Positions 1,746-43,500 of a stretch of DNA of 64,000 nt are shown here, piece by piece. A model generated the notes under the pieces. That model did not search any database, had not been told where the DNA came from, and saw nothing but the letters and a program-made list of their open reading frames with translations. The position numbers were made by a program, and so were the translations under genes. This DNA is from Tubulanus polymorphus (lineage: Eukaryota > Animalia > Nemertea). Position 1 is the first letter of the stretch. Every line of letters starts with the position of its first letter. The stretch lies in assembly GCF_964204645.1 (NCBI RefSeq), contig NC_134027.1, positions 12,804,485 through 12,868,484 of the forward strand, in the 5' to 3' direction.

Positions 1746-2612
1746 CTCCGAATGTCAAGTGTGAGTCCAGCATACGGAAAGGATTGTGTTATATACTTGT
1801 ATTTAGTAAATACCTTGTGGATTTGACAATGATCGGTATGTACTGTAGGAAATAGGCCTATAGAGTATTGATAAATGGTTGAAGCCCGCGGCCGAATAAA
1901 GTAATATATTCTTTTATTTTGATACCTCGTCGACATAACAGCTTTTCTCCGCCTTATCTCTTCGGCCTGTTTAGTTTAGGCCTACGATTCCCCGGTACAC
2001 TAAAGATTTATCTTAGTAAATACACGGTTAATTCGGTAAAGAAAAATTGGTATTGTTAAACGAACTCCTTGAAACCCGCAGCCAAATCACTGGTAGTAAT
2101 AAATTAATTTGTCCTCGATTTGATTCTCATGATGAGGAGAAACTCGCAGCTCATCCGCGGAACGTCGATGTAGTAACACACGTCGATTCGTCGATGTTTA
2201 CGGCTCGACAGTGCTTTTAAAATCTAAAGTAGTAAATTTCCAGTGTATCGGTAATATGATTTGATGAGGAAAATGGGCTATTGTTAAAATCACTGTTTGA
2301 AGACCGCGACTGAATGTGAAGTCTGCGGCAATAAATTAGTTCATTTATACTTGAATTGATAATCGAAGTGACAGTCGGCCTGCGGGTTGATTTCGGGATG
2401 ACGACTCGAAAAACATGTCGCCCCATTGAATGGGGCTAAATTTTCGATGTTTACGGCCCGACAGCGCTTTTGTAACGACGATTCGTGAAAAAACACGCGG
2501 GCTATTTGTAGATCTCAGTGAGCTGAACGATATTATATGGATTGTATATGAAACAGCGGTAAGGTAACAAAGCCTATGTTCTTTTGGTAAAAATAGTGTG
2601 GAAGAAAATAAT

Positions 2613-2765
2613 AATAATCACGCGGATATCAATAGGGTTTTCTGTGAAATAACAGAAAACCCTAATAATCACGCGGATATCAATAGGGTTTTCTGTGAAA
2701 TAACAGAAAACCCTAATAATCACGCGGATATCAATAGGGTTTTCTGTGAAATAACAGAAAACCCT
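2613..2765. repeat. Three 51-bp tandem repeats, each with a 12-bp-stem hairpin
   Basis: Unit AATAATCACGCGGATATCAAT-AGGGTTTTCTGT-GAAATA-ACAGAAAACCCT x3. Confidence 0.9.
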
Positions 2766-2793
2766 AATTATTACTTTTCAAGAATTAGATGCT

Positions 2794-3171
2794 ATGAAAC
2801 CAGATAAAGTAATAAAATATTTTAAGATTTATGAAAAAGCTAGATTAGCTAGAATAAATGATTCTATTTCAGATGGTATTGTCAAATGTTATTCAAAATT
2901 ATGTAACCAGTTAATACCAATTGATGATGAAAATAAATTATATAGTGATTTGAAAAATGACTACTTAGTTATGACTGAATTACAAAAATGGGTTGGTTAT
3001 GCTTCATTTCAATTAGGATCTGTTATGACATTAATTTCTACTGGTGTCATAACATTTTCGAATATCAAGCCTATAGAATATAAATCAGTTAAGAACGAAA
3101 CAGATGTACTACAACCAAACGTCGAAACAGAAAATGAATCAGAACAAAAATTAACTAAAATAAATGAGTGA
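2794..3171 (+). CDS. Polinton hypothetical protein with a hydrophobic segment
   Basis: 125-aa ORF overlapping the next ORF within the viral cluster. Confidence 0.6.
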   Translation: MKPDKVIKYFKIYEKARLARINDSISDGIVKCYSKLCNQLIPIDDENKLYSDLKNDYLVMTELQKWVGYASFQLGSVMTLISTGVITFSNIKPIEYKSVKNETDVLQPNVETENESEQKLTKINE

Positions 3172-3532
3172 TGGAGTTAAGAAAAAGGCTAGATCCGAGA
3201 AACAAATTAAATGGGCAAGAGAATTGGGTAAAAGATCTTCAGAATTAAAAAAAGCTAAGAAAAAGAAATTAACTGATATAAATGAATCACAGACTTTATC
3301 TGATATTAATTCAAATAATAATCCATCTAATTCTTCTATTGCTGGAAGTAATTATAAATTATATATTACATTTGGATTAGTAACAGTTATTATATTATCC
3401 GGTGTAATATATAAATCAAAATTCAAATCTGATGATAAATATGATTCCAATGACAATAAACCTATTATACCAGAAAATAAGTCAAATCATAAAGCCATTG
3501 AAACTAAATCTAAATTATTATTAATGGATTAA
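3164..3532 (+). CDS. Polinton small basic protein with one predicted TM helix
   Basis: K/R-rich N-terminus (KKKARSEKQIKWARELGKRS), hydrophobic LYITFGLVTVIILSGVIY, TAAATG start. Confidence 0.65.
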   Translation: MSDGVKKKARSEKQIKWARELGKRSSELKKAKKKKLTDINESQTLSDINSNNNPSNSSIAGSNYKLYITFGLVTVIILSGVIYKSKFKSDDKYDSNDNKPIIPENKSNHKAIETKSKLLLMD

Positions 3533-3538
3533 AATAAG

Positions 3539-4622
3539 ATGAAAAAAGAACAATATTTAAGAGATTTATATTATAACCCAGAAAGTGAAGTATCATATTC
3601 TAACGTTTCAGAATTATGGAATAAAATTAAATCTGATAATGAAAATGGTAATGGATCCGTACAGCACCCACATGGTGATATAAAATATAGTGAACTAAGA
3701 TTATGGTTACAAAATCAACCAACATATCAAATCCACAAGAAAATGGATAAAACTTATTTAACAAGAAAAGTTATGGTTTCATATACCGATCAACAATGGC
3801 AGATTTAATTGACATGAAGAACTTAGAAGAACACAACAAAGGATATTTCTGGATACTGAATGTTATAGACATATTCAGTAGATACGCATGGTCAATTCCA
3901 ATCAAAAATAAAACTGGAATAGAAGTTACAAATGCTTTTAAATACAATTTGATGAAGGTAAGGAATTTTATAACAAACATTTTAAAAAACTATTATCTGA
4001 TAACGATGTAGAATATTTTTCAACACACTCAGATAAAAAAGCATCTATTATAGAAAGATTTAATAAAACATTGAAAACTAGAATGTGGAAATATTTTACT
4101 GCTAATGAAACATATAAAAATATCGATGTATTAGATGATTTAGTGAAAGGTTATAATAATTCTAAACATAGTTCTATAAATATGAAACCTATACAAGCTA
4201 GAAAAGAAGATAATTCGGAAATAGTTTGGAATAATTTATATGGCGCGTTTGTTACACATGATTTCGGTGAACCTAGATTCAAAATTGGACAACACGTTAG
4301 AATATCTAAATATAGAAAAACCTTTTATAAAGGTTATACCCCTAATTTTACTGAAGGAATATTTAAAATTAAAAAGATAATATTAACTAAACCATTTGTT
4401 TAAAAATTAGAAGATCTAAAAGATGAAGAAATATTAGGTTATTTCTATGAACAAGAATTATCACTTGTGCCATATCCAGAAGAAATAGAATATAAAATAG
4501 AAAAAGTATTGAAAACAAAAACTCTTAAAGGAAAAAAGTATTCTTTGGTGAAATATAAAGGATATGATGATAAATTTAATGAATGGATTTTATCTAGTAA
4601 AATTAAAAGAATAAATGAATAA
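3539..4622 (+). pseudogene. Polinton retroviral-type (rve) integrase with C-terminal chromodomain; frameshifted
   Basis: Joined frames give YYNP..SYS, QWQADLIDM..IDIFSRYAW, QFDEGKEFYN, KASIIERFNKTLK (D-D-E), YNNSKHSSI, then YKIEKVL..LVKYKGYDDKFNEWI. Confidence 0.9.
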
Positions 4623-5220
4623 AGATTTATTTATATTTGAACCGCATAATATGTTAGTTACTGGAGTAACCAATTGTGGTAAAACACATTTCATATTAGA
4701 CTTGTTAGAAACTATTTATAAGAATCATTTTGATAATATAATATTATTCTGCCCTACTTATGAAATGAATAAAACATATAATAGAGATATAGTTAAGATA
4801 AAAAAGTTTATTATATTAAATCCCAAAACAGTAAAAGAAAATTTAGATAATTGTATAAAAATAGCAATTGATACTTATAAAGGATCAAATACATTATTCA
4901 TTGTAGATGATTGCGCAAATTTACATGATTCAAAAGTGAGAGAAAGTGAGTTATGTTATCTAGCTTTCTCTGGAAGACATTTCGGGATAACAACATGGGT
5001 TTTAAATCAAAAATATAATTCAATTGACTTTAGGGAGAATATAAGATTTCTAGTTTTATTTTATAACAAAGATAAAAAATCTATGCAACAATCATTGGAA
5101 GAAAATCAAATTATACCTACTGAATTACATGATGAATATATGAATAAATTAAAGAATAATAAAGGTTCAAAATTATTACTGAGATTACAATTTCCCTATG
5201 AATATAAATTTATAAAATAA
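4615..5220 (+). CDS. A32/FtsK-like DNA packaging ATPase
   Basis: Walker A GVTNCGKT, Walker B LFIVDD, GRH motif. Confidence 0.88.
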   Translation: MNKDLFIFEPHNMLVTGVTNCGKTHFILDLLETIYKNHFDNIILFCPTYEMNKTYNRDIVKIKKFIILNPKTVKENLDNCIKIAIDTYKGSNTLFIVDDCANLHDSKVRESELCYLAFSGRHFGITTWVLNQKYNSIDFRENIRFLVLFYNKDKKSMQQSLEENQIIPTELHDEYMNKLKNNKGSKLLLRLQFPYEYKFIK

Positions 5221-5609
5221 CTATTTGTATACCTATGTATTAGATACCCTAATACCTGATACCCCATTAGATACCCTAATACCTGATACCCTATTAGATA
5301 CCTTGAATACTTAAAACCCCCTTTTTTAAAATAAATGTTATTTATACAATTTTCAACCAATTTATTTTTATTTTTTCATAAAACATATGAATAAGTTTGA
5401 AAATAATAAAGGTTATTTATTATTACTGAGGTTTCAATATAAATTTAAAAAAGAAATATAATTTAAGGTATTTTCAAATAATATGTATTAAATACGTATT
5501 AGATACGTATTAGATACGTATTAGATATGTATTAAATACGTATTAGATACCTTAATACTTAAAACCCCCTTTTTTATTTACTATTATTTTATACAATTTT
5601 CAACCTTTA
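5221..5609. repeat. Repeat-rich spacer between convergent Polinton gene blocks
   Basis: Repeated TATTAGATAC(C/G) units plus a duplicated TAGATACCTT..AATACTTAAAACCCCCTTTTTT..TTTATACAATTTTCAACC block (~5296-5358 and ~5544-5605). Confidence 0.7.
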
Positions 5610-6479
5610 TTACTTTTTGAGTGTTAGATAATCACTTTCTGAATCACTTTCACTATCAGACCCTAACAATTTATTCAAATGCTCTACCGTATCTTCATAA
5701 ATAATTGGTTTATTGATATACTTATTAGTCATCTCAACTATATCTTTATTTTCTGATTTAAGTTTCATAGAATCTTTATTATCAATGCGCTTTCCTGTAT
5801 TTTCATTATTATCTTTATTAGTGTTTGCTCCTAATATTTCATTTACAATGTTTGATTCTAATTTAATAGCATCGGTTAAATCTAATTCATCTTTATTAGG
5901 CGTTGCTAATAATAAATCTTTACATAATTCTTTACCATTTACTTTTTGATTTGAAACAAACTTTGTAACATATCTAAATGGGTGTTCTATAAATTCTTTT
6001 AAACCAACACGTTCTATAACATTATTTATATGTACCCTTGTATTCATATGTTTATTCCAATTTGATGTAGCGTTTGAAAATTCACTTTTACAATATCCAC
6101 AATAATTTCTATTTTCACTAACATTTAATATTATTTCATTATTAGATGTAGAAGGTATTACATTATTAGATGTAGAAGGTATTACATTATTAGATGTAGA
6201 AGGTATTACATTATTAGATGTAGAAGGTATTACATTATTAGATGTAGAAGGTATTACATTATTAGATGTAGAAGGTATTACATTATTATCAATTACATTA
6301 CTTAAATTATCAACAACACCACTTTTATTATTATTGATTTCTATTAGTTTAGTTTTATAAATTTTGAAAATAGGATCAAATATCAAAGCTATATTACAAG
6401 GTATTACATAATATAAACCATCATTATTTTCATGTGTATCGATATATGGAATATGTTTATATACTTTACCTCCTTCCAT
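5610..6479 (-). CDS. Polinton protein with a 6x NNVIPSTS repeat and a C2H2/matrin-like zinc finger
   Basis: 24-bp tandem repeat at ~6138-6290; YCGYCK..WNKHMNTRVH. Confidence 0.7.
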   Translation of the reverse strand: MEGGKVYKHIPYIDTHENNDGLYYVIPCNIALIFDPIFKIYKTKLIEINNNKSGVVDNLSNVIDNNVIPSTSNNVIPSTSNNVIPSTSNNVIPSTSNNVIPSTSNNVIPSTSNNEIILNVSENRNYCGYCKSEFSNATSNWNKHMNTRVHINNVIERVGLKEFIEHPFRYVTKFVSNQKVNGKELCKDLLLATPNKDELDLTDAIKLESNIVNEILGANTNKDNNENTGKRIDNKDSMKLKSENKDIVEMTNKYINKPIIYEDTVEHLNKLLGSDSESDSESDYLTLKK

Positions 6480-6511
6480 TTATTATATAATTTTTTATTA
6501 AAGTTAAAATT

Positions 6512-7760
6512 TTAATACATAACACTATTTAATTGAGAATTTACAATATTTAATTGCGCGTCAGATATAATATAAATGTGCATTTTAAAGTTTTTGATTC
6601 CTTTACTCTTTGTCATGAATAATTGTATTCCATCTTTAGTGTTTTGTAATTTTTTTTCCAGAACCATGTAATGAATTATCCTCTGTTGTTCTAAAATCTT
6701 GCCATAATGCATATTTATTACCGGTATAATAATCAATTTGATTAATGTTACAATTTTCAGATGATTTCACTTTTTCATTCATAAAATGTTTTCTAATTTC
6801 TGGCCATTGATCAATCATTCTCATTCCTTGACAAAATATTTTATTTGCTATTCCTTCGATAGTTATTTCTACTTTTGTTATTTCAGGATTATAATAATTA
6901 TCAACATTTATTGCGCCATTAGTATATGTTGCAATGGTAAAAAATATTAATATACCTTTAATAGATCTTCTTGGGAAGTTAATATTCTCATTAATAATTT
7001 CATCATTTGCATTAATAGTTACAGTTTTAAATTTATCAATATAATCATATAATAATGAAAATCCTTGATTGTATTGAGTTTGAATTATACTTGCAATATT
7101 TTCATCAGTAACTGTATCATATTCTAAACATATATTCGATAATTTATAACTCATATCTTTATTAACGCTAGATAATACAATTTCATTTACAGGAGCAAAT
7201 GTTATTTCGAATATAACGTCTTCTTGAATTGCGTATTTATATGAAGGTGCATTGTTATTTATCAATTCAAAGTCTAATGGAATTTTATATTTGCTTCCAT
7301 ATATACTTTTTATCAATTTATCGATAGAATTAGTTAATATTGCATTATGTGCTTCCGATCTTAATTTATTTTGGTTTTCTGATTGGATTCCTTGAAATAT
7401 CATATTATTTCTATTTTTTTTAGTTAACCATAAATCTTTATAATGCATAAATAAATTATAATCATCTAATGAGAAAACTGTTTCAGGACCAATCTTTATA
7501 GTTGATTTTTTAATCAAATATCTTCCAACATTATCAACAACATAATTATTATTATTACCGATTACTTTTATATCGGCTGATAAATAAATACTATTTGGAA
7601 CATAAAAAATATTTTGTGTTAATCTAGGAATTCTAACATATAAAGTTTCATCGGGATTAATATTAGAAGGGTTATGAGTAATTATATGATGTGATCTTTC
7701 TGCTTTAATAGCATTAGATATTCTATGATTCTTAGAAGGATTGATATAACTCCCACTCAT
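6512..7760 (-). pseudogene. Major capsid protein (double jelly-roll/hexon-like); one frameshift near 6655
   Basis: 374-aa ORF (THNPSNI..LYVRIP..NICLEYD..DFRTTEDNSLHGSG) continues in another frame as KKLQNTKDGIQL..YIISDAQLNI. Size and context fit an MCP. Confidence 0.75.
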
Positions 7761-7780
7761 TTATTTAACAAAAAAATTAA

Positions 7781-9469
7781 TTATTCATTTTTTATCATGT
7801 TTACTAATCCAAAAATAATAGCACTTACAACTGTAATTAAAAATAAAATAATATGTTCAGCAGCAAAGTTAATAATATTCCCAGCAGATTTCAATATAAA
7901 ACCAACAATTGATGCAATAACTCCTGGCAATGCTGCAGCAGATTTCTTTGATAGTTCCCATAAATATTTTGCTAATTTCTTTAAACCATCTTTAACTTTA
8001 TCTTGTATAGAATTATTATCATTCGGGGGTTTATCCGGTTTATTTGGAATTCCAATTGTTGTAAATAACATAGTTACAGCTGTTAGAATTGAAAGAATTG
8101 TTATTCCTTCTAACTTAAATAATAATCTTATTCTATCTTTTAGTGATATGTCAGAATTTGGTTTTATCAACAAATCTTTAAAAATAACTTTTAATCTAGT
8201 AATATTATAATCATATGATTTTAATAATAATTTAATTTCTTCTTTTTGTAATTCTATGTTATATTCTTAATCATCTTTTTCTTTTTCTAAATACGCATTT
8301 CTTTTTTTAAATTCAATTTCTTCAATAACTTTATTATCTCTATCTAATTTTAGTTGTTCTATTTCTTTAATTTTATCAGTTCTATCTTTTTCTAAAAATC
8401 TAATTTTAATATCTCTTTTACTTTTTTCATGCGCAATTTTATCAGCTGATTCTTGCATACCTTTAATTTCTCTACGCGCTTGTTCAGGAAATGCTTCTAA
8501 TTCATCATCATTTAAATCAAATAATCCTTTTTCTAGTAAAGATTGTATTCGATTTATTCCAGTTTCAGCACCGGGTGTATCTAAAACACTATTCATCTCT
8601 TCTTCAAATGAATGAATTGTATCTAACATGCTATCAAAATGTTTTACTAATTGTAATTGACTTGAATCATTATCAATTTGTTGAATATCTCTTCTCGATG
8701 TTTCGGGTGTTGAAGATCTTAATTTATCTAATCGATCTTCATACTCTTCCATTTCTGGATCAACATTAGGAGGATTTAAATTTGGATTTTTAAATGGTGA
8801 ATATTTGTTAATATCAATTTTAGGAATTGGTTCTTCTTCATTTATTCTATCGATTGCATTCCATATAATTCTGAGAAATTCTCTACCACCTTTTGAACGT
8901 TCAATTGAAGATCCTGCACGCATTTCAGGATGGTACAGATCTTCTTGTCCCATTTTAGATAATTGAATTGATACAGTTTCGTTATTTAATTCAACTTTAT
9001 AAAACCATGAATCATTTTTAAATTCTAAATTATTCATGAAAAATGGATCATCTTCTACAATTTGTATTGCAATATCTTCTGGTTCAATGTTATATGTTAC
9101 ATTTTTTGGTAATAATTCTTCAATAACTGTATTTGTTACACTATGTTTTATGTATAATAATTGTTTTTTCAATTCAGGGTTTTCTGTTCTTTCTAATCTA
9201 TTAATTAAATCTTTTCTATCTGGCCTAGTTTTAATCATTATCTTATCGAGGGATTCTAAATAATCTATTAATTTTTCACTTGTTACAGTATCATATTTAA
9301 ATTCATCATAATCATATAATATAGGCCCACTAGAATCATCTTCACCTAAATTAGTATTATATGCTGATTCATCATCATTATCAATATTAGTTTCATTAAA
9401 ATCAGGTTGTGGTTCATCACTTATATAGGGGGCGTCACCAAAAGTATCCATTGGAATATCTTCTTCCAT
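7781..9469 (-). pseudogene. Large acidic/coiled-coil Polinton protein with C-terminal hydrophobic helices, split by one in-frame stop at 8267-8269
   Basis: The 400-aa and 130-aa ORFs are in frame, and the 93 nt between them read open (EYNIELQKEEIKLLLKSYDYNITRLKVIFKD). Confidence 0.7.
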
Positions 9470-9664
9470 TTATATAATAATGTTTTGTCGTTTTTCTCTA
9501 TATTCTTCCGCTGCTTTATTGTATTTCTCTAATGCTAAGTTATGTCTTCTTTGTTCTCCTAATGAACTATTTTTATCAATATGCTTAAATAAATAACCGC
9601 CACCAGTAAATGCTAAAGCGTTAACAATTGCCGATCCTATGATAGTTAGAATTGCAGAAGCCAT
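9470..9664 (-). CDS. Small Polinton protein with hydrophobic Gly/Ala N-terminus and EQRRHNLALE motif
   Basis: ORF track; abuts the next gene via TAA-ATG. Confidence 0.65.
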   Translation of the reverse strand: MASAILTIIGSAIVNALAFTGGGYLFKHIDKNSSLGEQRRHNLALEKYNKAAEEYREKRQNIII

Positions 9665-9688
9665 TTATTTAGCAAAAAAATTATGCAT

Positions 9689-9910
9689 TTATATGGGAGG
9701 AATATATTTTTGTTTTTCCAAATAATCAACAGTTAAATTAGATAAAGTAACTGCTAATGTTAATTTTAAAATATCATTGATATCAAATCTATCAACATTA
9801 ACACTTCCCATTTTGAATACCTTTTCTAATACCATTGAATAACCAACATTTCCAACTGATAGTAATGCTCCATTATATAATCCAGTTATTATCCACTTAT
9901 TATCACTCAT
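9689..9910 (-). CDS. Small Polinton hypothetical protein
   Basis: 73-aa ORF preceded by the shared TAAATAAATG motif. Confidence 0.6.
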   Translation of the reverse strand: MSDNKWIITGLYNGALLSVGNVGYSMVLEKVFKMGSVNVDRFDINDILKLTLAVTLSNLTVDYLEKQKYIPPI

Positions 9911-10270
9911 TTATTTATCAAAAAAATTACTATCTTCAAAATATTTAGTTAACTTATTTATGATTAATTCAACATTTATTTCATTACTACTTTTATGATT
10001 ATCATATATTTCAATTATTATTTTTTTAATATCATCTATAATAAAATCTTCATCTAATTCATAAAATCTTAAAGATTCTCTAATTAAATTAGTAATCTTT
10101 TCTACATTTAAAGTTTCTTTATTTATTGTTGTTTCATACTCAAATGTTGTTTCATTAGAAAATGCAATATTTTTGATATGTGTAATTACATCATTAACGT
10201 TAAATTTCAATTCTTTCTCACGTTTAAAATCAAACCCAAAACATATACTCGGTCCAACAGTTATATTCAT
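9911..10270 (-). CDS. Polinton hypothetical protein
   Basis: 119-aa ORF tightly packed in the cluster, with shared upstream motif. Confidence 0.55.
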   Translation of the reverse strand: MNITVGPSICFGFDFKREKELKFNVNDVITHIKNIAFSNETTFEYETTINKETLNVEKITNLIRESLRFYELDEDFIIDDIKKIIIEIYDNHKSSNEINVELIINKLTKYFEDSNFFDK

Positions 10271-10286
10271 TTATATGGTGAAAAAA

Positions 10287-11042
10287 TTACTCTCTACATC
10301 TTATAACTAATTCATATATCACAGGAAAGTTATTCAAATCAATTAAATATCCATTATGATTTCTTATTTCTAATTTAAAATTATTAAATTTAGGAATGCA
10401 TGGTTTGAAATCACATTCTGTTAAATTATAATTTATTTGAGTTCCAAATTGTTTAACATTTTTTAGCGGTAAAATATTTAGTATACTAGATCTACAAATT
10501 GTTTCTTTAGTTGCTTCGAAAGTTTTTGTAGGCTCGATTAAATTGCAATAAATATAAAAGTGTGTAAAAGGTATTATATTTGAGCTGCCTTCTGCGTTTC
10601 CAGTAACTGTAAGCGGTTTAATTCCTAACATTTTAGCCAGTGGTTTGTTTACCATAAATTTATGTTGTTCATTAGATATCTTTATTCTTATTTTATTAGT
10701 ACTATCAATTTTATTAAATTTAATTTCAAATACAGAAGTGCCCCCGATTTTCAACCGAGCTCTTCTATTAATTTCCTGCGCAAATTATTCTGAATTATAT
10801 AATCCTGGTTTTAAAAATACATGAAACCATTTATCTTTATTTCTCATACAAATCATAAACCCTCTATGTTCAAAAGTTTTATCTGATATATTATAAAAAG
10901 AATTACATAAACTTATATTTACTAATTTTAAATCAACACAATTCTTGAATTCTCTATCTAATTGTACTAGTAAATTATGAGATTTATAATTAGTAAGTTT
11001 TCTTGAATCAACAAATATTCTGTATTCTTTTAATTTCGCCAT
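10287..11042 (-). pseudogene. Minor capsid (penton-like) protein with an in-frame stop at 10785-10787
   Basis: 85-aa and 155-aa ORFs in frame; IFVDSR..NSFYNI..PGLY..LAKMLG..YIYCNLI..IDLNNFPV pattern typical of Polinton pentons. Confidence 0.75.
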
Positions 11043-11056
11043 TTATTTTACATATT

Positions 11057-11410
11057 TTATTCGAAATCTATTTCATGGTGCCCTTTTTCATTCTTACCTT
11101 TGTATACGAAATAGAAATCACCAGAAAATAATTCTTCTAAGTCTTCACTTGATAATCTATGAAATCTATCTGGTAAATATGTTCTGAATTTATATGTATT
11201 TCCTTTTAATCCTTCATATTCTAAGTGTATAACTAATTTATCTCCATATTTGTTAGTCACTGTATCAATATTTGTAATTAGATATTTCTTATGGATTGTT
11301 AATTCTGTTAACTTCTTAAATTTATAATCTACTGATTTGACATTTGAAGTATCTTTTATTCTATCTAGAAATGATTTGTTGTTCTCACTGTGCGTTTGTT
11401 TACTCTCCAT
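11057..11410 (-). CDS. Polinton small beta-rich protein (possible OB-fold/ssDNA-binding)
   Basis: FKKLTEL..KKYLI..TNKYGDKLVIHL..YLPDRF; lies next to PolB. Function is inferred only. Confidence 0.55.
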   Translation of the reverse strand: MESKQTHSENNKSFLDRIKDTSNVKSVDYKFKKLTELTIHKKYLITNIDTVTNKYGDKLVIHLEYEGLKGNTYKFRTYLPDRFHRLSSEDLEELFSGDFYFVYKGKNEKGHHEIDFE

Positions 11411-11439
11411 TTTAATAACATATTTTTATTAAAATTTGA

Positions 11440-15350: not shown

Positions 15351-15529
15351 GATTTTAGAAGTTCAATGATTTATATCATGTATTATTTCAATCTCACTTT
15401 ACTAACACTTTTAATGTTTAAAAATCTAACTCATACAAATATGAATATTGAAATAATGTTGTAAATATATACTTTTATATTGAATAATCTGTCAATTTAA
15501 ATGTTATTCATGTATATGAATATTTTAAG

Positions 15530-15939: not shown

Positions 15940-18900
15940 GAGGTCGTTCAATACAAGATTGATTACAATCAAGAAAATGAAGAGCGGTTAAAGAAAATGT
16001 CTAAAGAAGATGTTGAAAAGGAAGAAAAGACTGAAAACCTGTACAAGGAAAATTATTTCGACATGTTGGCAAAATTATCAAATCTAGAAGCCAAGGTCTA
16101 TAAGAAAGAAAAAAGTAAAGCTTCGAGAGAGGTCAGTCCTGAATGACGAAGTATAGTATCAGCCGCAGATTTTAATAAAGGGCTTGCTGATGCCTTCAAG
16201 GGGATGAATACTGGTATTACAGGTGACCAACTTCAACAAATCCTTGGAACATTGACTCAAAAGAAGCGGGAAATACAAATTCCTATATTCAAGGGTGAAC
16301 TCGATCAATTTGAGTCGTGGGTAGAATTGGTGGAAGCAGAAGTAGAGAAACCAGGTTACTCTGATGTTGAGAAGGCACATCTAGTCAAGACACTGGTGGA
16401 CGGAGATGCTAAGAAACTAGTTTTGGCGTTACGTGATCCAACCTATGACAACATCATGAAGGCTCTAGACAACAAGTATGGGGATGTTCACACAAGGCTA
16501 CAGAAAGCCATTGTTGATATTTCAGCGATTGAGCCAGCAATGACATTAAGTGTAAAGGACTTGGATCCTCTCTATACCAAGTTATTATCTTGCTGGAATT
16601 ATTTGATGAAGAAGACAGAGTCTGATGTACATCTTATTAAGAGTAGCTGGGTGTTAACATCATTAGTTCGACCAAAACTGCCAAAGTCGTTGGTTCGAAA
16701 ATGGGAATCTGATTCACTCAGGAATGAGAAAAGAGATGAAAATAATGACGGTGAACAATCTACTGATGAATATACCACTTCAAATCTTCCGATGAGGTTT
16801 GACCACATGTTTAACAAGATACAAGATGCGCTCACTGTAGCTCGAAGATCAGACGGAGAAAAGGGTGGTGGTGGTAAATTACATGTAGAAAAGAGATTTC
16901 AACCTCGGAGATCTAGTACTACAGCCACAGGGCATCCTCTTCAAATTTCCAAAAGTACTGAAGAATCTGATGATAACGCTAAGACATGTATATTTTGTAG
17001 TAAACCTCACTCGCCATGGTTATGTGATGATATGAAGAAAATGTCAGTTACTGAACGGGCAGACTGCGTAAAAAGAAGTAATGCATGTTTCAACTGTCTA
17101 AAAAGAGGTCGCAATGCTCGTCAATGTCACAGCAAGATGAGATGCAGAAAATGTAAAAAGAGGCATTGCGATATACTACACAGAGAAACATCAAGAAATG
17201 AACATGAGAAAAAGCAGTCTACAGATTCAAGGTCTAATGAGTCTAATCTAGCTGATGATAACGATGATGAAGTAACCAAAGTAAAGGGCGCTTGTGGTCT
17301 TGTCAAGGTCGTACAAGGACCCAAGAAGATTGTAATGCAAAGTGGTCTTGTTAATTTGATATCAAAATCTAGTGAAATTACTGGTAGATGTTTGTTTGAC
17401 ACAGGTAGCGATGTGTCCTTTATTCGAACTGCTGCAGCTAAACAGTTGAATTTGCAAGGTCCGAAAGTTGATGCAGAATTTACTTTAGCTGGTGGTCAAA
17501 GTATGAAGATTAAAACTCAGAAGGTAAAACTTCATGTGTCCAGTATTATTCCTGATTGGGATGGTGAAGTTTTCGAAGTTGTTGCTTACGTCTTAGACAA
17601 GCCATGTGCTGACCTAGGTTCGGTTGATGTGGACATTTCTACCATTCCTAAGTTTAAAAACTTACTGTTCGCTGACAAATTCCCACGAGGGGAGGCGAGC
17701 GTTCATATACTGTTGGGAATCGAAGACACGTTAAGAATCATGATGGACTGTTCGATAAAGGACGATGATGGTGCACTAGTGGCACAGAAAAGCCATGTTG
17801 GTTGGATTTTGTCTGGTCCTTGCAGTATTAATTCAGATTCAAGAATCATTGAAGAAAAGTATCCGTTCTGTAGAGTAGATATAACAGATCCGACTGAGAT
17901 AGCGGTCAAGCATTGGGAGCTGGAACATATTGGTATATTACCGCGTGAAGAAAGTTCCAAGTTTACTATTTTGGAGACTGATGCTTTAAAGCAACATGAA
18001 GAAAAACTGTTTTTAAAGATGGTAGATACGAGACTGGTTTACTCAAACATCCTGATTGGAAAGATCGCAAGTTGAAGTCTAATCGAGTAATTGCTGAGAA
18101 CCGTCTGTATGGAATTGAGAGAAGATTAAAAGGGGATCCAGAGTTAGCATCACAGTACAAAGAGCAAATTGATGACCTTATTCTTTCTGGAAGAGCAGAA
18201 TTAGTTATCGAAGATGAGGAACCAACTGATGGACGTACTGTATGGTATCTTCCTCACCATCCTGTTCTCAAGAAAAGCAGTACTACAACTAAAACCAGAA
18301 TAGTGAATGATGGTGCGTCGAAGGGTCCTGAAGGAATTTCCATTAATGACACTCTGATTCCTGGTCCAGCACTCCAGCCGGACATACTAGCAATTCTTAT
18401 ACGATTTCGCCAACACAAGGTTGCGTTAATTGCTGAAAAAATGTTCCATCAAATCGGGATCAATGAAAGAGACAGAGATAGTCTACGTTTTCTATGGAGA
18501 GATTTGAAGACGGATGAACCACCGAAAATCTATAGAATGACACGTGTGGTATTTGGTATTTAGTCGTCGCCTTTTTCAAGTATTAAAACTGTGATGGATC
18601 ATGTTGAAAGTTGCAAAGATCGTTACCCCAAGGCATGTTCTGAAATAAAGGAAAATATTTTTGTTGATGATGTAATCTCCGGAGCAGATTCTGTTAGCGA
18701 CACTGCTTCACTGGCTTCAGACATGAAGGCTATGATGACTGAAGGAGGGTTTCCCTTAAGAAAGTTTATATCCAACAAACCAGAATGTCTCAAAGGGATG
18801 AAAGAAGAAGATCTTGCTTCATACCACATGGAAATAACTGATAATGGAGCGGTTACTAAGACACTGGGAGTTAAGTACAGTCCCAAAGATGATGTTTTGA

Positions 18901-21339
18901 TGTTTGGTATTAGTAATGTTAATGTTGAAAATGGTATTGACACACGTCGCACTGTTTTGAGTACGTTAAATCGACTGTTTGATCCAACAGGTTTTTTGTC
19001 ACCATTTACTGTACGTGGTAAGATGATATTCCAGAAGTCATGGGTTCAAGTTCCTGGTTGGAATGATCCACTCAGTGAAGAATTACAAGTACCGTGGTCA
19101 AAATGGATGAACCACCTTCCATTATTAGAAGAAATAAGACTTAAACGGTGTTTGATTCCAGAAGATGTGACTGATCCTGTATATACTCTGATGGGGTTTG
19201 GAGACGCCTCTGAAGCAGCCTATGGTGCGTGTGTATATTTGGTTATAGAAGATCGGTCAACTGGTAATCGACACTGTGAATTGATATGCTCAAAGACTAG
19301 TGTATCACCGTTAAAATCAAGACGTAGCATTCCAGAGTTAGAGCTCATGGCTGCACTTATTAATGCCAGATTGGTGGACTACATAAAATCTCAATTGAAG
19401 TTAAACTTTGAAGATGTTTACTGTTGGACAGACTCTAAAGTTGTTCTAGAATGGCTACGCAAACCAGGGTACACCTGGCAAGCATTTGTTGGTCGGCGAG
19501 TATCTGAAATACATGGAATTGTACCTCCATCAAATTGGAAGCATGTTCCTGGTGTTGAAAATCCAGCTGACTTATGCTCAAGAGGATGCAGTGCCTCTGA
19601 ACTTATTAAATCTGAGAAGTGGTGGTATGGTCCTGAATTCTTGAGGAAATCTAAAGATAATTGGCCATTGCAGGACAACAAAACTACTCAGACAGCTATT
19701 GAAACAGCTTTGAAGAAGAAGTCAAAATCATTTCCAGTACCAGTTCTACAAATTGCTGGTGTTAATGATTCAAAGATTCAAGATGATGAGTCAGACAAAA
19801 TTCAGAGGAATGAAAAGAAAACTAGCTCAACGTCACAGGATAAGAAGATTGAAGGCTCTTGTGATGAAGAAGATCCATTGTTGTATTATACAAAGTTGTT
19901 CAGTTCACACTTCAGATTCATACGAGCTATGTCACGTGCTAGATCATTGCTTAGCAAACAGAAATCGGCTGTATCCAGTGAAGATGAAGAATGTAAGTTG
20001 GACTTATGGAAACAAGAAGAAAAGTTCTGGCTTAAATGGGTTCAAAGCAAAGAATTTCCAGGTGAAATTAAGGCTCTACAGGAAGGTCGTCAGCTACCGA
20101 GATCCAGTAGCCTCAAAAAGCTAGATCCATTCCTAGATGAAGATGGTTTAATAAGAGTCGGTGGTCGTATCCAGGAAGCTTTGTTGCCAGAAGAAACTAT
20201 TCATCCGATAGTGTTGCCATGTAAGAATGAACTGGTTGAAAAACTTGTTATCCGACATCATCGACGTGATAGTCATACTGGTGTTGAGCAGACTCTAGCA
20301 AGTTTACGTACCAAGTACTGGATACTGCGTGGTAGAAAATAAGTTAGTCGCATTCTATACAAATGTGAATGTCGAGAGCCTGAACCAATGAAGCAAAAGA
20401 TGGGTCGCTTACCTGCTGAAAGAGTAAATGTCTCATTGCCCTTCAGCTGTGTTGGTGTAGATTTTGCTGGTCCACTCTATGCCAAGAAGTCAAGAAATAA
20501 GGACATCAAGACGTATATTGCATTTTACTTGCATGGCTACCAGAGCATGTCATCTAGAGTTGGTAGAAAGTCTGAATACCAATGATTTTCTAGCCGCTGT
20601 AAGACGGATGATGAATCGGAGAGGAAAGGCAAATACAATTTACTCTGATAATGCGAAGACCTTCAAGAAGGTATCTGAAGTCCTTACTATACTGTACAGT
20701 CCACGGAACAAGAAGAAAATTCGTGATAGTCTTCACCATGAGGGAATAAAATGGAAATTCATTCCTCCGAGATCTCCGTGGGTTGGCGGTTTTTATGAGC
20801 GCCTCGTAAAGAACGTCAAAGTGCCTCTACGAAGAGTTTTGGGAAAAGCAAGATTATCTGTATCAGAACTTCAGACAGTTCTCACTGATATTGAAGCTCA
20901 AGTGAACTCGAGACCACTTCTAAGCGTTTCGTCTGATCACAAAGATCCACTGCCGATCACGCCAGGTCATTTGACTGTTGGGAGAAATTTACAGTGTATT
21001 CCTGATGATGATTCAATCACACAGAAGATGGGTTTGGATAAAAGATGGCAGCTTTCACAGAAACTTTCGAAACTTTTTTGGAACCCGTGTTATAAAGAAT
21101 ATGTTGCAGGTCTCAACATAAAAAGAAAATGGTTCGAAGAACAGGGAAATGCCAAGGTTGGAGGTGTGGTGTTGATCACAGACGACAGTAAGAAGAAGAT
21201 GGAGTGGCCAATGGGTAGAATTGTTGAAGTACATCCAGGTCGTGACGGACTGGTAAGATCTGTTACATTAAGAACTAAGTCTGGGTTGATTAGGAGATCA
21301 GTTCAACGTCTCAGGCTTCTTGAAGGAGTCAAAATTTAA
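15940..21339 (+). pseudogene. BEL/Pao gag-pol polyprotein with several frameshifts and stops
   Basis: Zn knuckles CIFC..H..C, CFNC, CRKC..H; protease LFDTGS; RT YLPHHPV..RIVNDGAS, FVDD; RNase H GFGDASEAAYG, WTDS, NPADLCSRG; integrase VDFAGP, SDNA, GGFYERLV; WPMGRI..HPGRDG. Confidence 0.92.
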
Positions 21340-21670
21340 ATTGATTATACAACCATAGACTATGTATATATGTTTTTTAAGTTCATTAATTTATATGATA
21401 ACCTGACGATTCTCGAATGAGGGGAGATAAATAGTTTTAAGATTAAGGTTAATATGCTGTAATTAAAATTAGAGTGAAAATTTAGGGCGAACATGTTAAG
21501 TTCTGTAAATTTCCAGAGGGGAGTATGTTCCCGTAGCTCTAAGTTAGTTAGTTTTTAAGTTAAGAAGCAAAGTAATTTTAAGATAGTACCAGACGGTGCT
21601 GCCCCCCAAAAAACAGGAAGTGAGGCAGGGCATGCTTCAGGAAGGAGAATGGAGGCCTCCCAAGAGATAA
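15940..21670 (+). mobile_element. BEL/Pao LTR retrotransposon, 5'-truncated, with partial 3' LTR
   Basis: gag-PR-RT-RH-IN order; polypurine tract AGAGGGGAGTA at 21515-21525 followed by TGT at 21526. Confidence 0.92.
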
Positions 21671-21914
21671 TCAAGAAATATCCAAAGTAATCCTTATGAC
21701 CAAAGGTAACACCTTTATCAAAAATTAAAAAGGCTCTATGTTCAATAGTTTTATTCGATATATTATGAAAAGAATTACATAAACTTACATTTACTAATTT
21801 TAAATCTACACAATTCTTAAATTCTCTATCTAATTGTACTAGTAAATTATGTGATTTATAATATCTAAGTCTTCTAGAATCAACAAATATTCTGTATTCT
21901 TTTAATTCTACCAT
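21670..21914 (-). pseudogene. 5' fragment of the penton-like gene, copy B, truncated at the BEL LTR
   Basis: Matches the 10785-11042 protein over ~60 aa, then runs into LTR sequence. Confidence 0.8.
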
Positions 21915-21982
21915 TATTTATAACATAAAAAAATTACCGCTCATCACTAAAAATTAATTTCAATAAAATTTTTCCTAAATAA

Positions 21983-23204
21983 ATGGATGAAAAGATAGCA
22001 TGTGAAATTTGTGGTGAACTTCTAAGAAAAAGTAATATGGCTCGACATATGAAAAAACATGATGAAAATTATAAACCCCCTAAAATAAACTGTCCAAATT
22101 GTAATAAATTATTCTCAAGAAATTATGTTAAAAAACATTCAGAGAAGTGTAAAATTAATGACACAACGGTTAATGTTGATAGTAACGAAAGTAATAGTAA
22201 TTCTGTTGAAGTTGAACCTGAAATTATTTGGAAAAGACCTTTCTTATTCTATGATAAGGATAATATAAAAGATAATTTCTGTGAGCCTTGTCGAATAAAA
22301 TATAACCCTGAAAATATAGAAGATTGGGAGAATCATCAATTTCGTAAAGTACATATAGATAAAATTTCTAATAAATTTGAAACAGAATTCAATGAAAGAA
22401 TAAATAGTTTATTAGAAAAAATAAAATATGAGAAAACGTTACCAGATAATAAAGAAACAGTTGAAAAGTTAGAAAAACAATATAATGAATTAGTAAGAAA
22501 AACATATTATTGTAAATATTGTAAATTAATTATTACAACAAGTTATTCAAATCTACATAATAGAACAATAAAACATAAAGAAAACGTAAGTAAATACCAA
22601 GAGCTAAATGAAGATCTATTACCAAGAAATGATAGAAAAAAATGCCCACAATGTATTTATGAGTACTTAAGACAAGAAGGTCCTATTTTGTAATGAATGT
22701 GGATGGCAAAAGAATTTATGGGGTTATAAAAAAACTAGAGATATTCTTATAGAACCAAAATCAAAATATCTAGATGAAATTTTTAAGATATTTTCTATGG
22801 AAGATCATACACCAGAATATAAGCAATGGCTTGAAAAAATGAAAATGATAGAAAATAAAAATGGAGAAATAACTAAGAAAGATATAATAAAAACAATTAT
22901 TCCATCAACATGTAACACAAAAGAAAAGAAAATGTATTTATATTTATTATTTAACGATTATTATAAAAAACCTAAATTAACAGAAGAAGATATGGAAAAT
23001 ATAAAAGAAACATTCAAAAATATTAAGATATTATGTGGATAATAGAATAACAGATTCAATTAATTATGAATTTTAAATAAGATTGTAAATTCTTTAAACA
23101 TCGATATTATAATTCCATTTGATGAATTAACGAACAAAAAGAAACAAAGAGAGCGAGATGAAATATGGTACAAGATAGAACTTTATTTAAATGAGAAAAA
23201 TTAA
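21983..23204 (+). pseudogene. Multi-zinc-finger protein fused to a VLTF3-like (poxvirus A2-type late transcription factor) domain; frameshifted
   Basis: C2H2 fingers (CEIC..H..H, CPNC..H..C, CEPC..H..H, CKYC..H..H). Joined frames give CPQC-x8-EG.LFCNECG and a C-terminus SINYE(F)ILNKIVNSL..PFDELTNKKKQRERDEIWYKI. Confidence 0.6.
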
Positions 23205-23296
23205 ATGGAAGAACCTAAACAAATTATACAAGAACAATTAAATGAAAAAGAAGAAACCAATGGTGATTTCGAGTTTGATGATATTGATTTTATGTT

Positions 23297-26200
23297 TTAA
23301 TAACCATAAGGTAATGTTTTTATTCCATCATCTAAAATATGCCTTTTATCATCAAATGGATTCAAACTAGTTTTTTCAACTTCATTAATGTACATCTCGT
23401 GATCTTCTGATCATAAACAATTCATTTTGTGTTTCATTACAATTGAGTTATATAAACACTTAATATAATCTTGAAATTCTATATGTTTATCAACCACGTG
23501 CTTTGTTATTCCTTTTAACTTTTTAGCTTCATGATCTTTTGTTCTATAACTGTACATTCTACTTCTTATCCCAACAAATTCAATCATTTCATCACCCCCT
23601 AATTCATCTTTAAACTTACCAGGAATCTTTTTATTATCATTACTAAATAGTTCATGATCTTTGGGATAATTGCTAAAATCAAAATAATGTTTTAATGTTT
23701 TTAAGTCTTTTGTTATATCATTTGTCTTGATTTTTAGTATGTACGCGTCCGGATTTTTTTTAGGATTAATGGGAACCCAGAATTGAATGTTCCATCATCT
23801 GTTGATAAATCATAAACATAATCTGTTGGGTTATATATTTCAAATAAATCATTAACTTCTTCTGTTAATTCTTTTTCTACACGCCTTAAATTAAAACAAT
23901 TTGGTTTAGATTTAATTAATTCAATATTCATATTAAGACCTAATGAATTGCATAATATATTTAACCCTGATATAGCAACTTTTCCGTTCTGTGCAAAGGT
24001 TATCTTTTTATCCTTTGTAATTTTTTTAGAGCCATCTGCAGCATAGAATCCAATGAAGAACCATTTTCTTAAATTATATTTTGCATTTAATACATAATCT
24101 GGAACTATCTTTTCTTTAGTTGAAGTATTACTTTTAACTATTGCATGAATATAGAATTCATCATTATATTTTGTAGCAAAATCTTTAGGATTATTTACAA
24201 ATATTCTATATAGCGCGAATGATTTCATATGATCCACGATTCTAAATATTTTATGTGAATAAACTTCTTCACAGAATTTCTTAATTCTTTCTAATAATTT
24301 CAAATCTTGATTGCATAAATACCAACGATATTGAGTGCGATTTACATATTTATACACACCTGCTGAACCATCTCCCATAAAAAATCCTTTGATAAAATAT
24401 TCTTTTTCTTCTAATGTTTCGGGTTCTATATTATAAATATTATCAATTACTTCATCAAATGACATATGATTCTTTCTTTGGAAAAATCTTTTATGTAATA
24501 ATTCATCTCCAATTTTTATATCAGTTGGTTTTATTTCATCACCATTTCGTTTAATTAAACTATGATCTTCTGTAACATCTACAAACCCTAATTTAGTTCT
24601 AACTCTATAGATTTTCTTATTTGTTTTATGCCTAATGATATTCTTTAATTTTTTCCATTTCTTGTCCAAACATCCATTAATTCATTTATTTGTATTAATT
24701 CTTTTTCACCATATGAAATATAACATTCATTTTGTTTTGGAATTATTTCTGAAATTCTTCTTACCAATATTTTATTATTACATTTTAATAATATTGGGGT
24801 GTCAGCTGTTACAGAATCAAAATATAAGATTTCTATACGTTTTTTCCCAAAAAGTGGTTGTAGAACATTATAATAAAAATCATACATTAATAATTTTGAT
24901 ACTTCTAAAACAGTTGAATCAATGAATATAGGTTTATTAAATTTCATCGTTCTTTTTAATTTAACTGCTGTTAAATAATCTTCAAATCTTTTATTTCCTA
25001 AATGTCTAGGACTTGATTGTAAATGTCTTAATCTACCAGAATTATTTACTAATTCAATATCACTTCTATTTCTATTATTTTCACATGTTTTACCATAAAA
25101 ACTACTATTCATTAATTTGAAGAAATCTTTTTCAAAATCTGTTTTTAATATGGTTCTCTGTTGAGTATTAAAATCTATATATTTTTCTAACCACTTCGAT
25201 TGATTAAACTCAATAAATCTATGTACTTCCTTTAATTTCATTCCTTGTTTTAGATACAATTTTAAAATTCTATAATGAACAATATAATTATATTTATTAT
25301 TTTGTGTAAGTATTAATTTTTCTGTAAAAACATGATCTTTCGGTTTTATTTTCTTCTGGTATTCACTTAAATAACTATCATCTACGGCTAAATGTTCTGG
25401 GCAATATGGTAAGTTTCTTGTTTTAAACTTTATGTTATCAGGATATTCTAAATCAACTACAAATAAATAACCAATTGGTGCTTCATCTTTTAAACTCGCA
25501 ATTGCGCTTTCCCAATCAGTTTTATCATCATTTTCAACTTCTGTTAATATAAAATTTTTGTGTTGTTGAGGTTGCATCATTGCCCAACCATATAAATTAT
25601 TGGCGTCAATATATAATAATTTATATTCATCATTTGCTTTAAAATGTCTATCTCCCATAACACCACTAATTCCACCTCTAATTGATTTTTCAAATAATAA
25701 AACCATGTCTGGTTCTTTTAATAAATCCAATTCTACATTTGTATATTTTAAACCACATTGCCAGGTTAAACCAGGACTTGAATAACAATAACAAGGATCA
25801 ACATTAAAATGATTCAAATTAACTTCCTTAAATTTTTCAAATATGTCAGCCAATATCATAACATCTGATTTTAAATACAAATCTACTAATTCACCATGAT
25901 TTTTTATCTTAAAGTGATTCCAAATATTTAATGTTCTATTAAAAACTTCATCTTTCACATACTCCTCTTTTAATTGATCATAAAATTGTTCTTTTAATAA
26001 TTCTGTTACATTAAAGTCATCATGTGTTTTGTTAAATGAATACGGAATTGCGCCTTTATATCTCAATAATTTAAAATCTTGTTCATTTGGGTAATAATGT
26101 CGAGTTATTATAAAATCATTATCAACTAAACTTTTTGCTAAATTATCTAATTAACTTGCTAGAAATCTATAAGAATCTAAAAATCTAATGCAACCAAATT

Positions 26201-26745
26201 GAAATGAAATGTAATTTTCAGATGTCTTAGCTAATAGTTTAAAATCATATTTTCTTACATTTGCGCCATTCATAGCATTATATTCTTCTATTTCTTGATT
26301 AATTGTGCCCAATTTTCCTGATAACTGTTTTATAAATAGATGGGTATCATAGCCCGATGAATTATGCAATAATATTGGTACGAAATTAACTTTCTTAGCT
26401 TGTAAATTACAATCTTCATGAGCAGCTCCACGATATTTTGAATTTAAATGATCGTGATCTCTAACTTTTTTATCAAATGAATGAAAACGTTTTTCACAGT
26501 TACAACAATGAGTTGAGTAATTAAAATCAATTTCATCTTCTTTTGTTATAACTATTCTTTTATTTTTGTTTAATAATTTTGCAAAATCACTTTCTAATTC
26601 AATTATTTTGTTACAAAAATTGTTAACTACATCTTGACCTCTAAAAGGAATATATTGACTTTGATATAATTCAGGATAATTTGATTTTTTATGTAAATTC
26701 CATAAGCAGCAGCTCTTTGATGAACTTTTTTAATTGTATAATTAT
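23297..26745 (-). pseudogene. Protein-primed PolB, copy B, interrupted by an intein; 5'-truncated, with stops and frameshifts
   Basis: HNSSGYD, YIDANNLYG, KLMNSSFYGKT, ILYFD|intein|(P)DAYILKIK..FDFSNYP..FKDELGG..PFDDKR. Confidence 0.92.
23753..24815 (-). mobile_element. Intein (~355 aa reconstructed) with LAGLIDADG homing endonuclease, inserted in PolB motif C
   Basis: Block A SVTADTPILL directly after YFD; block B VDVTEDHSL; LAGLIDADG motifs FIKGFFMGDGS and FFIGFYAADGS; block F YVYDLST; ends ..LILKN. Two frameshifts (~24655 and the A-run at 23754-23760). Confidence 0.92.
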
Positions 26746-34054: not shown

Positions 34055-34158
34055 CTAAAAAATAATGATTAAAAGTCTGTGAGATACGTACAGTACAACA
34101 CACCAAATTTATTACAAAATTGTAATTACAATTGTTTATTACAATTTCATGTGCATAC

Positions 34159-40635: not shown

Positions 40636-40680
40636 AAGGATTTTTCACACATCGAGGTTGGACACACACATTTACCAATA

Positions 40681-43422: not shown

Positions 43423-43500
43423 CTGTAAAAATGAGAAAATGCAGCCTTATTAGAGATAATTGCCCATGGGCCAAGAGGTTTACCACAGCGTTATGAAATG

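What the first reader, a model, noticed from the sequence alone, without database searches (positions are those of the whole stretch)
2598..26745. Candidate system: an animal Polinton lineage tied to giant-virus machinery
Three independent signals co-occur in two related elements: an NCLDV/archaeal-type pol-c intein, a VLTF3-like gene and pox-like TAAATG starts. Established: virophages such as mavirus integrate with an rve integrase, carry pPolB and share late promoters with their giant-virus host. Inference (speculative): this family replicated alongside an NCLDV in the same cell, virophage-style, allowing intein transfer and promoter sharing.
Basis: inference. Interest (0 to 1): 0.72.

Follow-up and report, generated by a model that had tools for sequence, protein, structure and literature searches.

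The report
Giant-virus intein in animal Polinton polymerase
A virus-like element (Polinton) present in many copies in what is likely an animal genome carries, inside its DNA polymerase gene, a predicted self-splicing protein insert (intein) whose closest relatives outside Polintons sit in giant viruses, and most of its genes start at a poxvirus-style signal, which suggests a likely single old gift from a giant virus plus possible reliance on a different, pox-like helper virus.

Summary
Partly confirmed. The window holds two broken Polinton copies, A and B, separated by a BEL/Pao retrotransposon. All three signals are real, but they do not co-occur as claimed. The intein and the VLTF3-like gene are in B only; TAAATG starts are in both (10 of 13 curated starts).

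The Hint-LAGLIDADG intein splits polymerase motif C. It belongs to a clade of inteins found only in Polinton polymerases (100/100), with intact members elsewhere and empty sister alleles. That clade nests among giant-virus PolB inteins, most likely next to marine Imitervirales (support 61-99, by model). I found no paper describing it. VLTF3 in Polintons is already published.

The start motif is lineage-specific (11 of 272 starts in other Polintons) and bipartite like poxvirus late promoters. It does not match the intein's donor group (3 of 30 starts).

Best reading: a mosaic. One ancient intein transfer was followed by homing among Polintons, and the genes are likely read by a pox-type helper polymerase. 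No helper or RNA was seen. The scan noted pox-style Polinton promoters before on other DNA (e1-8580207); I found no intein note.

The parts
2598..2780 (.). 51-bp tandem repeat unit of another repeat family; cuts off the left part of element A; not shown to be the Polinton terminus
   Evidence: the next ORF lacks about 75 N-terminal codons that its homologue in L041 has
2781..15939 (.). Polinton copy A (24% GC), left-truncated, several genes broken, multi-copy family
   Evidence: read depth about 500-900 over core genes
3539..4622 (+). rve integrase with chromodomain, in pieces
   Evidence: Pfam rve E=0.006-0.017 on pieces, Chromo 7e-6; 86% identical to the L041 integrase
4615..5220 (+). A32-like packaging ATPase, TAAATG start
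   Evidence: Pfam Pox_A32 E=3e-11
6512..7760 (-). Double-jelly-roll major capsid protein, frameshifted near its 3' end, TAAATG start
   Evidence: Atlas score 0.97, clusters with Capsid_N/DJR members; 32% identical to an L093 ORF; no Pfam or PDB sequence hit
10287..11042 (-). Putative minor capsid gene (by position only), split by a stop, TAAATG start
   Evidence: no family hit; single-sequence model uninformative, pLDDT 33
11440..15362 (-). pPolB of A (endonuclease VII-type insert), N-terminal part broken; motif C empty near 11970
   Evidence: Pfam DNA_pol_B_2 E=3e-15, Endonuclease_7 E=7e-4
15530..15939 (.). Right end of A: 112-bp inverted arms, AGT...ACT ends
   Evidence: I3; 1534 reads run on into unlike flanks behind 15939, agreement 0.34
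15940..21700 (+). BEL/Pao LTR retrotransposon between A and B
   Evidence: Pfam DUF1759, Peptidase_A17, rve, DUF5641
21702..26739 (.). Polinton fragment B, cut at both ends, multi-copy family
   Evidence: 74-89% nucleotide identity to parts of A; depth and loose ends
21983..23201 (+). Zinc-finger plus divergent VLTF3-like gene, broken; TAAATG start, head-to-head with the next gene
   Evidence: Pfam negative
23303..26739 (-). pPolB of B, 64% (N-part) and 78% (C-part) identical to A, with stops
23753..24815 (-). Hint-LAGLIDADG intein in pPolB motif C; two frameshifts and a damaged C-terminal junction in this copy
34150..62776 (-). Exons of the host cytoplasmic isoleucyl-tRNA synthetase gene (context: eukaryotic, likely animal host)
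   Evidence: Pfam tRNA-synt_1, Anticodon_1, DUF5915, Ubiquitin_IARS1; best PDB hit a 1263-aa cytoplasmic IleRS at 137.5 bits against 106.9 for the next (that the first is human and the next yeast is recalled)

Best explanation
This is a multi-copy, AT-rich Polinton lineage in a likely animal genome whose B family carries a Hint-LAGLIDADG intein in polymerase motif C, likely gained once long ago from a giant-virus polymerase and likely spread since by homing among Polintons, while its bipartite TAAATG gene starts are likely read by a poxvirus-type helper polymerase of a different virus than the intein donor. Shown: the insert, its site, its clade, occupied and empty sister alleles, and the start motif. 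Inferred for the intein: in intact copies it would splice out (Ser1, TxxH, Asp, Asn-Thr) to rejoin the catalytic aspartates, and its nuclease would cut empty GAY-ACN-GAY sites in co-replicating elements, so that repair copies it in. Inferred for transcription: a viral RNA polymerase would start inside TAAAT and give near-leaderless mRNA, so the elements would multiply virophage-style when a helper infects the cell. The VLTF3-like gene is an optional accessory with its own history.
For: Intein clade: all Polinton inteins form one group (8 rows 100/99; 10 rows 100; 7 rows 100/100 under a mixture model) inside giant-virus PolB inteins (93/93). They share a C-terminal FN[TSC]G[FY]PL motif with 19 viral contigs. 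Of 17 giant-virus bin ids looked up, 9 were in the table of PMC8575486, all marine Imitervirales (7 IM_01, 1 IM_07, 1 IM_08). Homing cycle: occupied and empty alleles are near-identical sisters (P0138/P0141, P0002/P0130) or nearest neighbours (L047/L050, B/L045); at least 34 raw reads of the same species skip the intein. The clade includes P0006, a pPolB with no significant BLASTP match to A's (best E=0.22), so it likely jumped between polymerase types. Splicing and nuclease motifs are intact in the five full-length sisters checked. Promoter: 10 of 13 window starts and 10 of 11 in relatives L041-L045; an upstream A5/T5 run in 16 of 19 true starts against 8 of 45 internal TAAATG; T at -3 in 19 of 24 as printed. 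This fits the poxvirus late layout of a T-containing core, 5-7 bp spacer and TAAAT(G/A) (PMC5294985, passages). The motif heads capsid, ATPase and, in relatives, polymerase genes alike, and also a head-to-head gene with no upstream neighbour on its strand. No RNA polymerase gene was found in A or B. Precedent: Polinton-like viruses in entomopoxvirus occlusion bodies (PMC11296320).
Against: No helper virus, transcript or 5' end was observed. The sister link to the Imitervirales subgroup falls from 99/96 and 89 to 61/91 under the mixture model; direction rests on rooting with inteins from other sites. Hosts of the other intein-bearing Polintons are unnamed, so the transfer may have happened in a protist. 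Related inteins also sit in unrelated proteins at D-TD sites (P0026), so a brief encounter could suffice. The motif contains AATAAA or TATAAA, which host Pol II could use, and in 2 of the 10 starts the TAA is the upstream gene's stop. Internal AATAAA is not depleted here (O/E 0.92-0.97) but neither is it in other AT-rich Polintons (0.96), so that test does not discriminate. GC-matched controls are few (49 ORFs under 33% GC). Reads that skip the intein could come from another Polinton family.
Confidence: 0.47

Rival explanations
1. Autonomous nuclear Polinton. The intein history is as above, but the genes are transcribed by host Pol II, perhaps aided by the element's own VLTF3-like factor, and TAAATG is a compact signal of the lineage (TATA-like, poly(A)-signal or stop-start overlap). 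No helper is needed.
For: Genes are tightly packed, and 2 of 10 TAAATG use the upstream stop. Nearly all starts contain AATAAA or TATAAA. The elements encode an integrase and are present in many chromosomal copies. No helper was seen.
Against: The motif also heads a head-to-head gene (21983) and has a spaced upstream A/T box (16 of 19 against 8 of 45). T at -3 is poor Kozak context (recalled). Coding strands hold 4-6 AATAAA per kb. A lacks the VLTF3-like gene yet keeps the motif.
Confidence: 0.33
2. One reading: one giant virus co-replicating in the same cells supplied intein, VLTF3 and promoter.
For: The intein is giant-virus-type, the VLTF3-like call holds, and the motif is lineage-specific. 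Giant-virus loci L001-L016 show a mild excess of TAA before ATG (32 of 191).
Against: The traits do not co-segregate (A; L045). The intein clade is old (44-61% identity between B and its sisters) and Polinton-wide. Loci of the nearest donor group have TAA before ATG in 3 of 30 ORFs. CroV and mavirus use TCTA (PMC5294985, PMC8547959). VLTF3 in Polintons is already reported (PMC11131425).
Confidence: 0.12
3. The reverse or a two-way flow: the intein subgroup arose in Polintons or Polinton-like viruses and passed to marine Imitervirales.
For: In the widest tree the two groups are sisters, neither inside the other, and their union is weak under the mixture model.
Against: Both sit inside a much larger radiation of giant-virus PolB inteins. 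The intein is rare in Polintons: 1 occupied, 61 empty and 21 not spanning or unparsed among 83 fetched loci. None of the 19 viral contigs with the motif that were parsed was a pPolB.
Confidence: 0.08

Closest known systems
Polintons/Mavericks (Polintoviricetes, adintoviruses; PMC8502044, bioRxiv 10.64898/2026.06.19.733378, passages)
   Same: pPolB, rve integrase, A32 ATPase, double-jelly-roll capsid, inverted end, many chromosomal copies; VLTF3 in a subgroup is reported (PMC11131425, passages).
   Different: A Hint-LAGLIDADG intein in motif C and lineage-wide TAAATG starts. Neither 'intein' nor 'TAAAT' occurs in PMC11131425 or PMC8502044, and 'intein' does not occur in the 2026 preprint or in bioRxiv 10.1101/2023.08.22.554363. 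PMC11071308 only speculates that nuclease domains in pPolBs derive from inteins.
Motif-C inteins of giant-virus PolB (mimivirus P0102; marine Imitervirales)
   Same: Same site (D-TDS), Ser1, VTEDHS, two LAGLIDADG motifs, Lys/His-Asn end; 35-42% identity.
   Different: Host protein is a protein-primed polymerase of an integrating element in a likely animal genome. PMC5784728 (passages) lists eukaryotic inteins in fungi, algae, some protists and giant viruses; its passages name no animal nuclear or Polinton case.
Mavirus and endogenous mavirus-like elements (PMC8547959, passages)
   Same: rve integrase, pPolB, low GC, one motif upstream of many genes, thought to match a helper.
   Different: Their motif is TCTA of CroV; here it is TAAATG, the capsid was not tested against virophage profiles, and dependence is not shown.
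Entomopoxvirus-associated Polinton-like viruses (PMC11296320; abstract, introduction and first results read)
   Same: Animal Polinton-like elements proposed to parasitise a poxvirus.
   Different: Found physically with the helper; the text has no occurrence of promoter, TAAAT, VLTF or intein. Here the promoter points to a helper that was not seen.
Poxvirus late/intermediate promoters (PMC5294985, passages)
   Same: A/T core, short spacer, TAAAT(G) overlapping the start codon.
   Different: Here in an element that encodes no RNA polymerase; function untested.

Membership tests
Polinton/Maverick | Protein-primed family B polymerase | tested here: met
   Pfam DNA_pol_B_2 E=3e-15 for A; B 64-78% identical
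Polinton/Maverick | rve integrase | tested here: met
   weak Pfam hits on broken pieces; 86% identical to the L041 integrase
Polinton/Maverick | A32-like packaging ATPase | tested here: met
   Pox_A32 E=3e-11
Polinton/Maverick | Double-jelly-roll major capsid protein | tested here: met
   Atlas 0.97 with capsid clusters; Pfam and PDB sequence searches blank
Polinton/Maverick | Minor capsid protein and cysteine protease | tested here: inconclusive
   candidate by position only (uninformative); no protease hit, but both copies are truncated
Polinton/Maverick | Terminal inverted repeats and 6-bp target duplication | tested here: inconclusive
   only the right end of A survives
Class 1 intein with homing endonuclease | In-frame insert at a conserved host motif, with empty alleles | tested here: met
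   in frame in P0001-P0004 and P0006, frameshifted in this copy
Class 1 intein with homing endonuclease | N-terminal Ser/Cys, block B TxxH, block F Asp, terminal Asn, +1 Ser/Thr/Cys | tested here: met
   all present in 5 of 5 intact sisters checked; in B the first three are present and the C-terminal junction is damaged
Class 1 intein with homing endonuclease | Two LAGLIDADG motifs with acidic residues | tested here: met
Class 1 intein with homing endonuclease | Splicing and DNA-cutting activity | not testable with these tools
   needs an assay
VLTF3 (Pox_VLTF3, PF04947) | Score above the Pfam cut-off | tested here: not met
   no hit for B or L045; control proteins hit at 1e-44 or better
VLTF3 (Pox_VLTF3, PF04947) | Remote profile similarity over the helical core, preceded by a Cys-rich ribbon | tested here: met
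   HHalign 91.5, shuffles 0-3 of 1000; Atlas 26 of 30; filed as VLTF3-like, not as a member
Virophage (Maveriviricetes) | Virophage-type capsid protein | not tested
   no virophage profile at hand
Virophage (Maveriviricetes) | Promoter shared with an Imitervirales helper | tested here: not met
   3 of 30 starts in loci of the intein's nearest group; CroV motif is TCTA
Virophage (Maveriviricetes) | Replication depends on a co-infecting large DNA virus | not testable with these tools
   no genome held, no RNA holder listed

The most novel reading that the evidence does not exclude
An animal virophage lineage: endogenous Polintons of an invertebrate that are transcribed by an undiscovered poxvirus-like helper and that carry a homing intein taken from marine giant viruses, which is still cycling among Polinton polymerases inside animal genomes, where inteins were not known.
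Probability: 0.35. Interest if true: 0.85.

Novelty: new variant of a known kind. Interest (0 to 1): 0.64.

Why it matters
The survey I read places eukaryotic inteins in fungi, algae, some protists and giant viruses. A Polinton-wide intein clade, multi-copy in a likely animal genome, extends that range. It is also a physical trace that Polinton and giant-virus DNA once shared a cell, across two polymerase types that share little beyond motif C. How animal Polintons are expressed and spread is an open question. A lineage-specific pox-style start signal makes it testable: it predicts where transcripts begin, a 5' poly(A) leader, and the kind of helper to look for in the host's reads.

Tried and rejected
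No whole genome is held, so helper markers in the host could not be searched. No RNA holder was listed; this is no evidence on expression. Viral-contig scans with P0001 and with A's capsid found no relatives; the prokaryote genome scan gave two distant pPolB loci. For VLTF3, Pfam, NCBIfam and two word-based homologue searches were blank, a single-sequence model was poor (pLDDT 47) and its fold search gave nothing at E<=0.001; a whole-length profile was swamped by composition bias and was rebuilt on the core. The first intein tree placed one long branch (L034) among the Polinton rows; it was left out of later trees. Trees used thinned sets: 78 of 141, 107 of 246, and 40 hand-picked rows. Rejected: TAAATG as an AT-richness artefact; TAAATG at 14259 as a true start; 2598 as the Polinton end; archaeal origin of the intein. 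Codon-shuffle tests for AATAAA and T5NT did not separate this lineage from controls. PHROGs and Pfam found no RNA polymerase subunit among the accessory ORFs. Rfam found nothing. Krupovic and Koonin 2016, cited for VLTF3 in Polintons, is not held and was not read; bioRxiv supplements are closed, so an intein noted only there would be missed.
Full report
Setting. The window is eukaryotic host DNA with exons of cytoplasmic isoleucyl-tRNA synthetase from about 34 to 63 kb; the best structure hit is a 1263-aa enzyme (human, recalled), so the host is likely an animal. The phylum was not determined, and no genome is held. Two stretches of 24% GC are Polinton copies. A (2781-15939) has integrase, ATPase, capsid and pPolB; it is cut on the left by a 51-bp repeat and has a true right end at 15939. 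A BEL/Pao retrotransposon follows. B (21702-26739) is a fragment. Both families are multi-copy: in one raw-read run the intein bins have depth 154-250 against 11-18 on B's left flank and 29-51 on its right, and A's core genes about 500-900. Single-copy depth is not known, so copy numbers are not given.

Intein. B's pPolB has a 1063-nt insert between the Asp and Thr of motif C; A has the empty site. The insert has Hint and LAGLIDADG domains. This copy is broken by two frameshifts and a damaged C-terminal junction; at the inner frameshift most reads of sister copies differ from this copy, and at the junction a part of them do. Of the best 120 of 458 longer homologues, 7 are other pPolBs (43-61% identity), 1 is another protein and 112 carry the family-B PolB domain. 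Of 144 new proteins among the best 150 of a full HMMER search, 128 were PolB-type, 1 pPolB and 15 other or unclassified. Five full-length sisters keep all splicing and nuclease motifs.

Origin. Polinton inteins form one clade in three trees, inside giant-virus PolB inteins. Their likely sister is a group sharing a C-terminal FN[TSC]G[FY]PL motif; support is 99/96, 89 and 61/91 in the three trees. Nineteen viral contigs carry that motif. Of their 17 bin ids, 9 are in the supplement of PMC8575486, all marine Imitervirales, 7 of them IM_01, the mesomimiviruses. Mimivirus lies outside this group. A single old transfer is the simplest reading.

Spread. On a quick polymerase tree of 67 rows, 7 of the 8 intein-bearing rows fall in one 18-row clade that includes A and B, each beside an empty relative. 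These rows were found through the intein, so this is no prevalence; among 83 loci fetched by polymerase alone, 1 is occupied, 61 empty and 21 uninformative. At least 34 raw reads skip the intein. The eighth row, P0006, is a distant pPolB type (best E=0.22 to A) whose intein nests in the clade. The intein tree otherwise follows the polymerase tree. This fits gain at the base of the clade, then loss and re-homing, plus one jump. The shared DNA target is short (GAY-ACN-GAY core), and related inteins also sit at D-TD sites of other proteins.

VLTF3. Only B has the gene. Pfam misses it, but an intact relative in L045 gives consistent remote evidence, and A has no match. L045 has the gene and an empty intein site. 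VLTF3 in a subgroup of Polintons is published (PMC11131425, passages), so this signal is not new.

Start motif. TAAATG heads 10 of 13 curated starts in the window; I left out three starts that are truncated, broken or unclear (2794, the ORF at 7781-8266, polB). In relatives L041-L045 it heads 10 of 11 (one search prints 9 because one start at a contig end was mis-sliced; one search shows it). In 71 other pPolB loci it heads 11 of 272 ORFs, 3 of 49 under 33% GC, with L074 and L120 (2 of 2 each) as possible further lineages. True starts have an upstream A/T run (16 of 19 against 8 of 45 internal copies). This matches the poxvirus late layout (PMC5294985, passages), not CroV/mavirus TCTA, and not the loci of the intein's nearest group (3 of 30). 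Against a helper reading: the motif holds AATAAA or TATAAA, two starts reuse an upstream stop, and codon-shuffle tests did not discriminate.

Mechanism. Shown: anatomy, clade, empty and filled alleles, motif. Inferred: splicing restores the polymerase; the nuclease drives homing; a pox-type helper polymerase reads the motif (about 55% on its own). The mosaic reading gets 0.47, an autonomous Pol II element 0.33, one giant-virus donor for all three traits 0.12, reverse flow 0.08.

Literature. Searches returned no paper that describes a Hint-LAGLIDADG intein in a Polinton polymerase or TAAATG starts in Polintons. I saw passages of PMC11131425, PMC8502044, PMC11071308, PMC12220804, PMC5784728, PMC10710043 (reference list only), PMC5294985, PMC8547959, PMC13768754, PMC8575486 (plus supplement rows) and bioRxiv 10.64898/2026.06.19.733378, 10.1101/2023.08.22.554363 and 10.1101/2024.03.23.586382, and the first part of PMC11296320. 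Subscription papers, Repbase and InBase were not searchable. The scan's own notes hold a Polinton with pox-style promoters in another genome (e1-8580207) and none on this intein.

Verdict. The new part is the Polinton intein clade and the lineage-specific promoter; the single-helper story is not supported. New variant of a known kind, interest 0.64.

Noticed in passing
P0002 cluster (P0121-P0134): Intein-bearing members differ from empty members in the residues on both sides of the site, and two empty members read DCDS; this may reflect co-converted flanks or resistant targets.
   Followed up: partly
L041:4079-4849, L044:5129-5833: Close relatives of A carry a free-standing endonuclease VII/HNH-type gene right behind pPolB, also with a TAAATG start.
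   Followed up: partly
L074, L120: Two more distant pPolB loci also start 2 of 2 genes with TAAATG; the signal may have arisen more than once.
   Followed up: no
P0026; P0169, P0233, P0247, P0282, P0286, P0289: Related inteins sit in an ADP-ribosylglycohydrolase and in proteins that look like type II topoisomerases (recalled motif), most at D-TD-like sites.
   Followed up: no
P0018, P0019: Two inteins lie in tandem three residues apart in motif C of a PolB.
   Followed up: no
window 8267-9469 and 5476-6479: Read depth drops about five- to ten-fold over these two ORFs of A, so they are variable accessory slots of the family.
   Followed up: no
L041, L044, L045 coding regions: CpG is not depleted (O/E 1.14; 0.93 in A+B) whereas other Polinton sets show 0.48-0.94; a weak hint of little time under host methylation.
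   Followed up: partly
window 45450-51443: A GC-richer retroelement with reverse transcriptase and RNase H, inverted repeats and a 245-bp perfect hairpin lies within the host gene; likely DIRS-like.
   Followed up: no
window 4-1286: A 31-bp tandem repeat array, next to a very high-copy repeat at 1500-2500.
   Followed up: no
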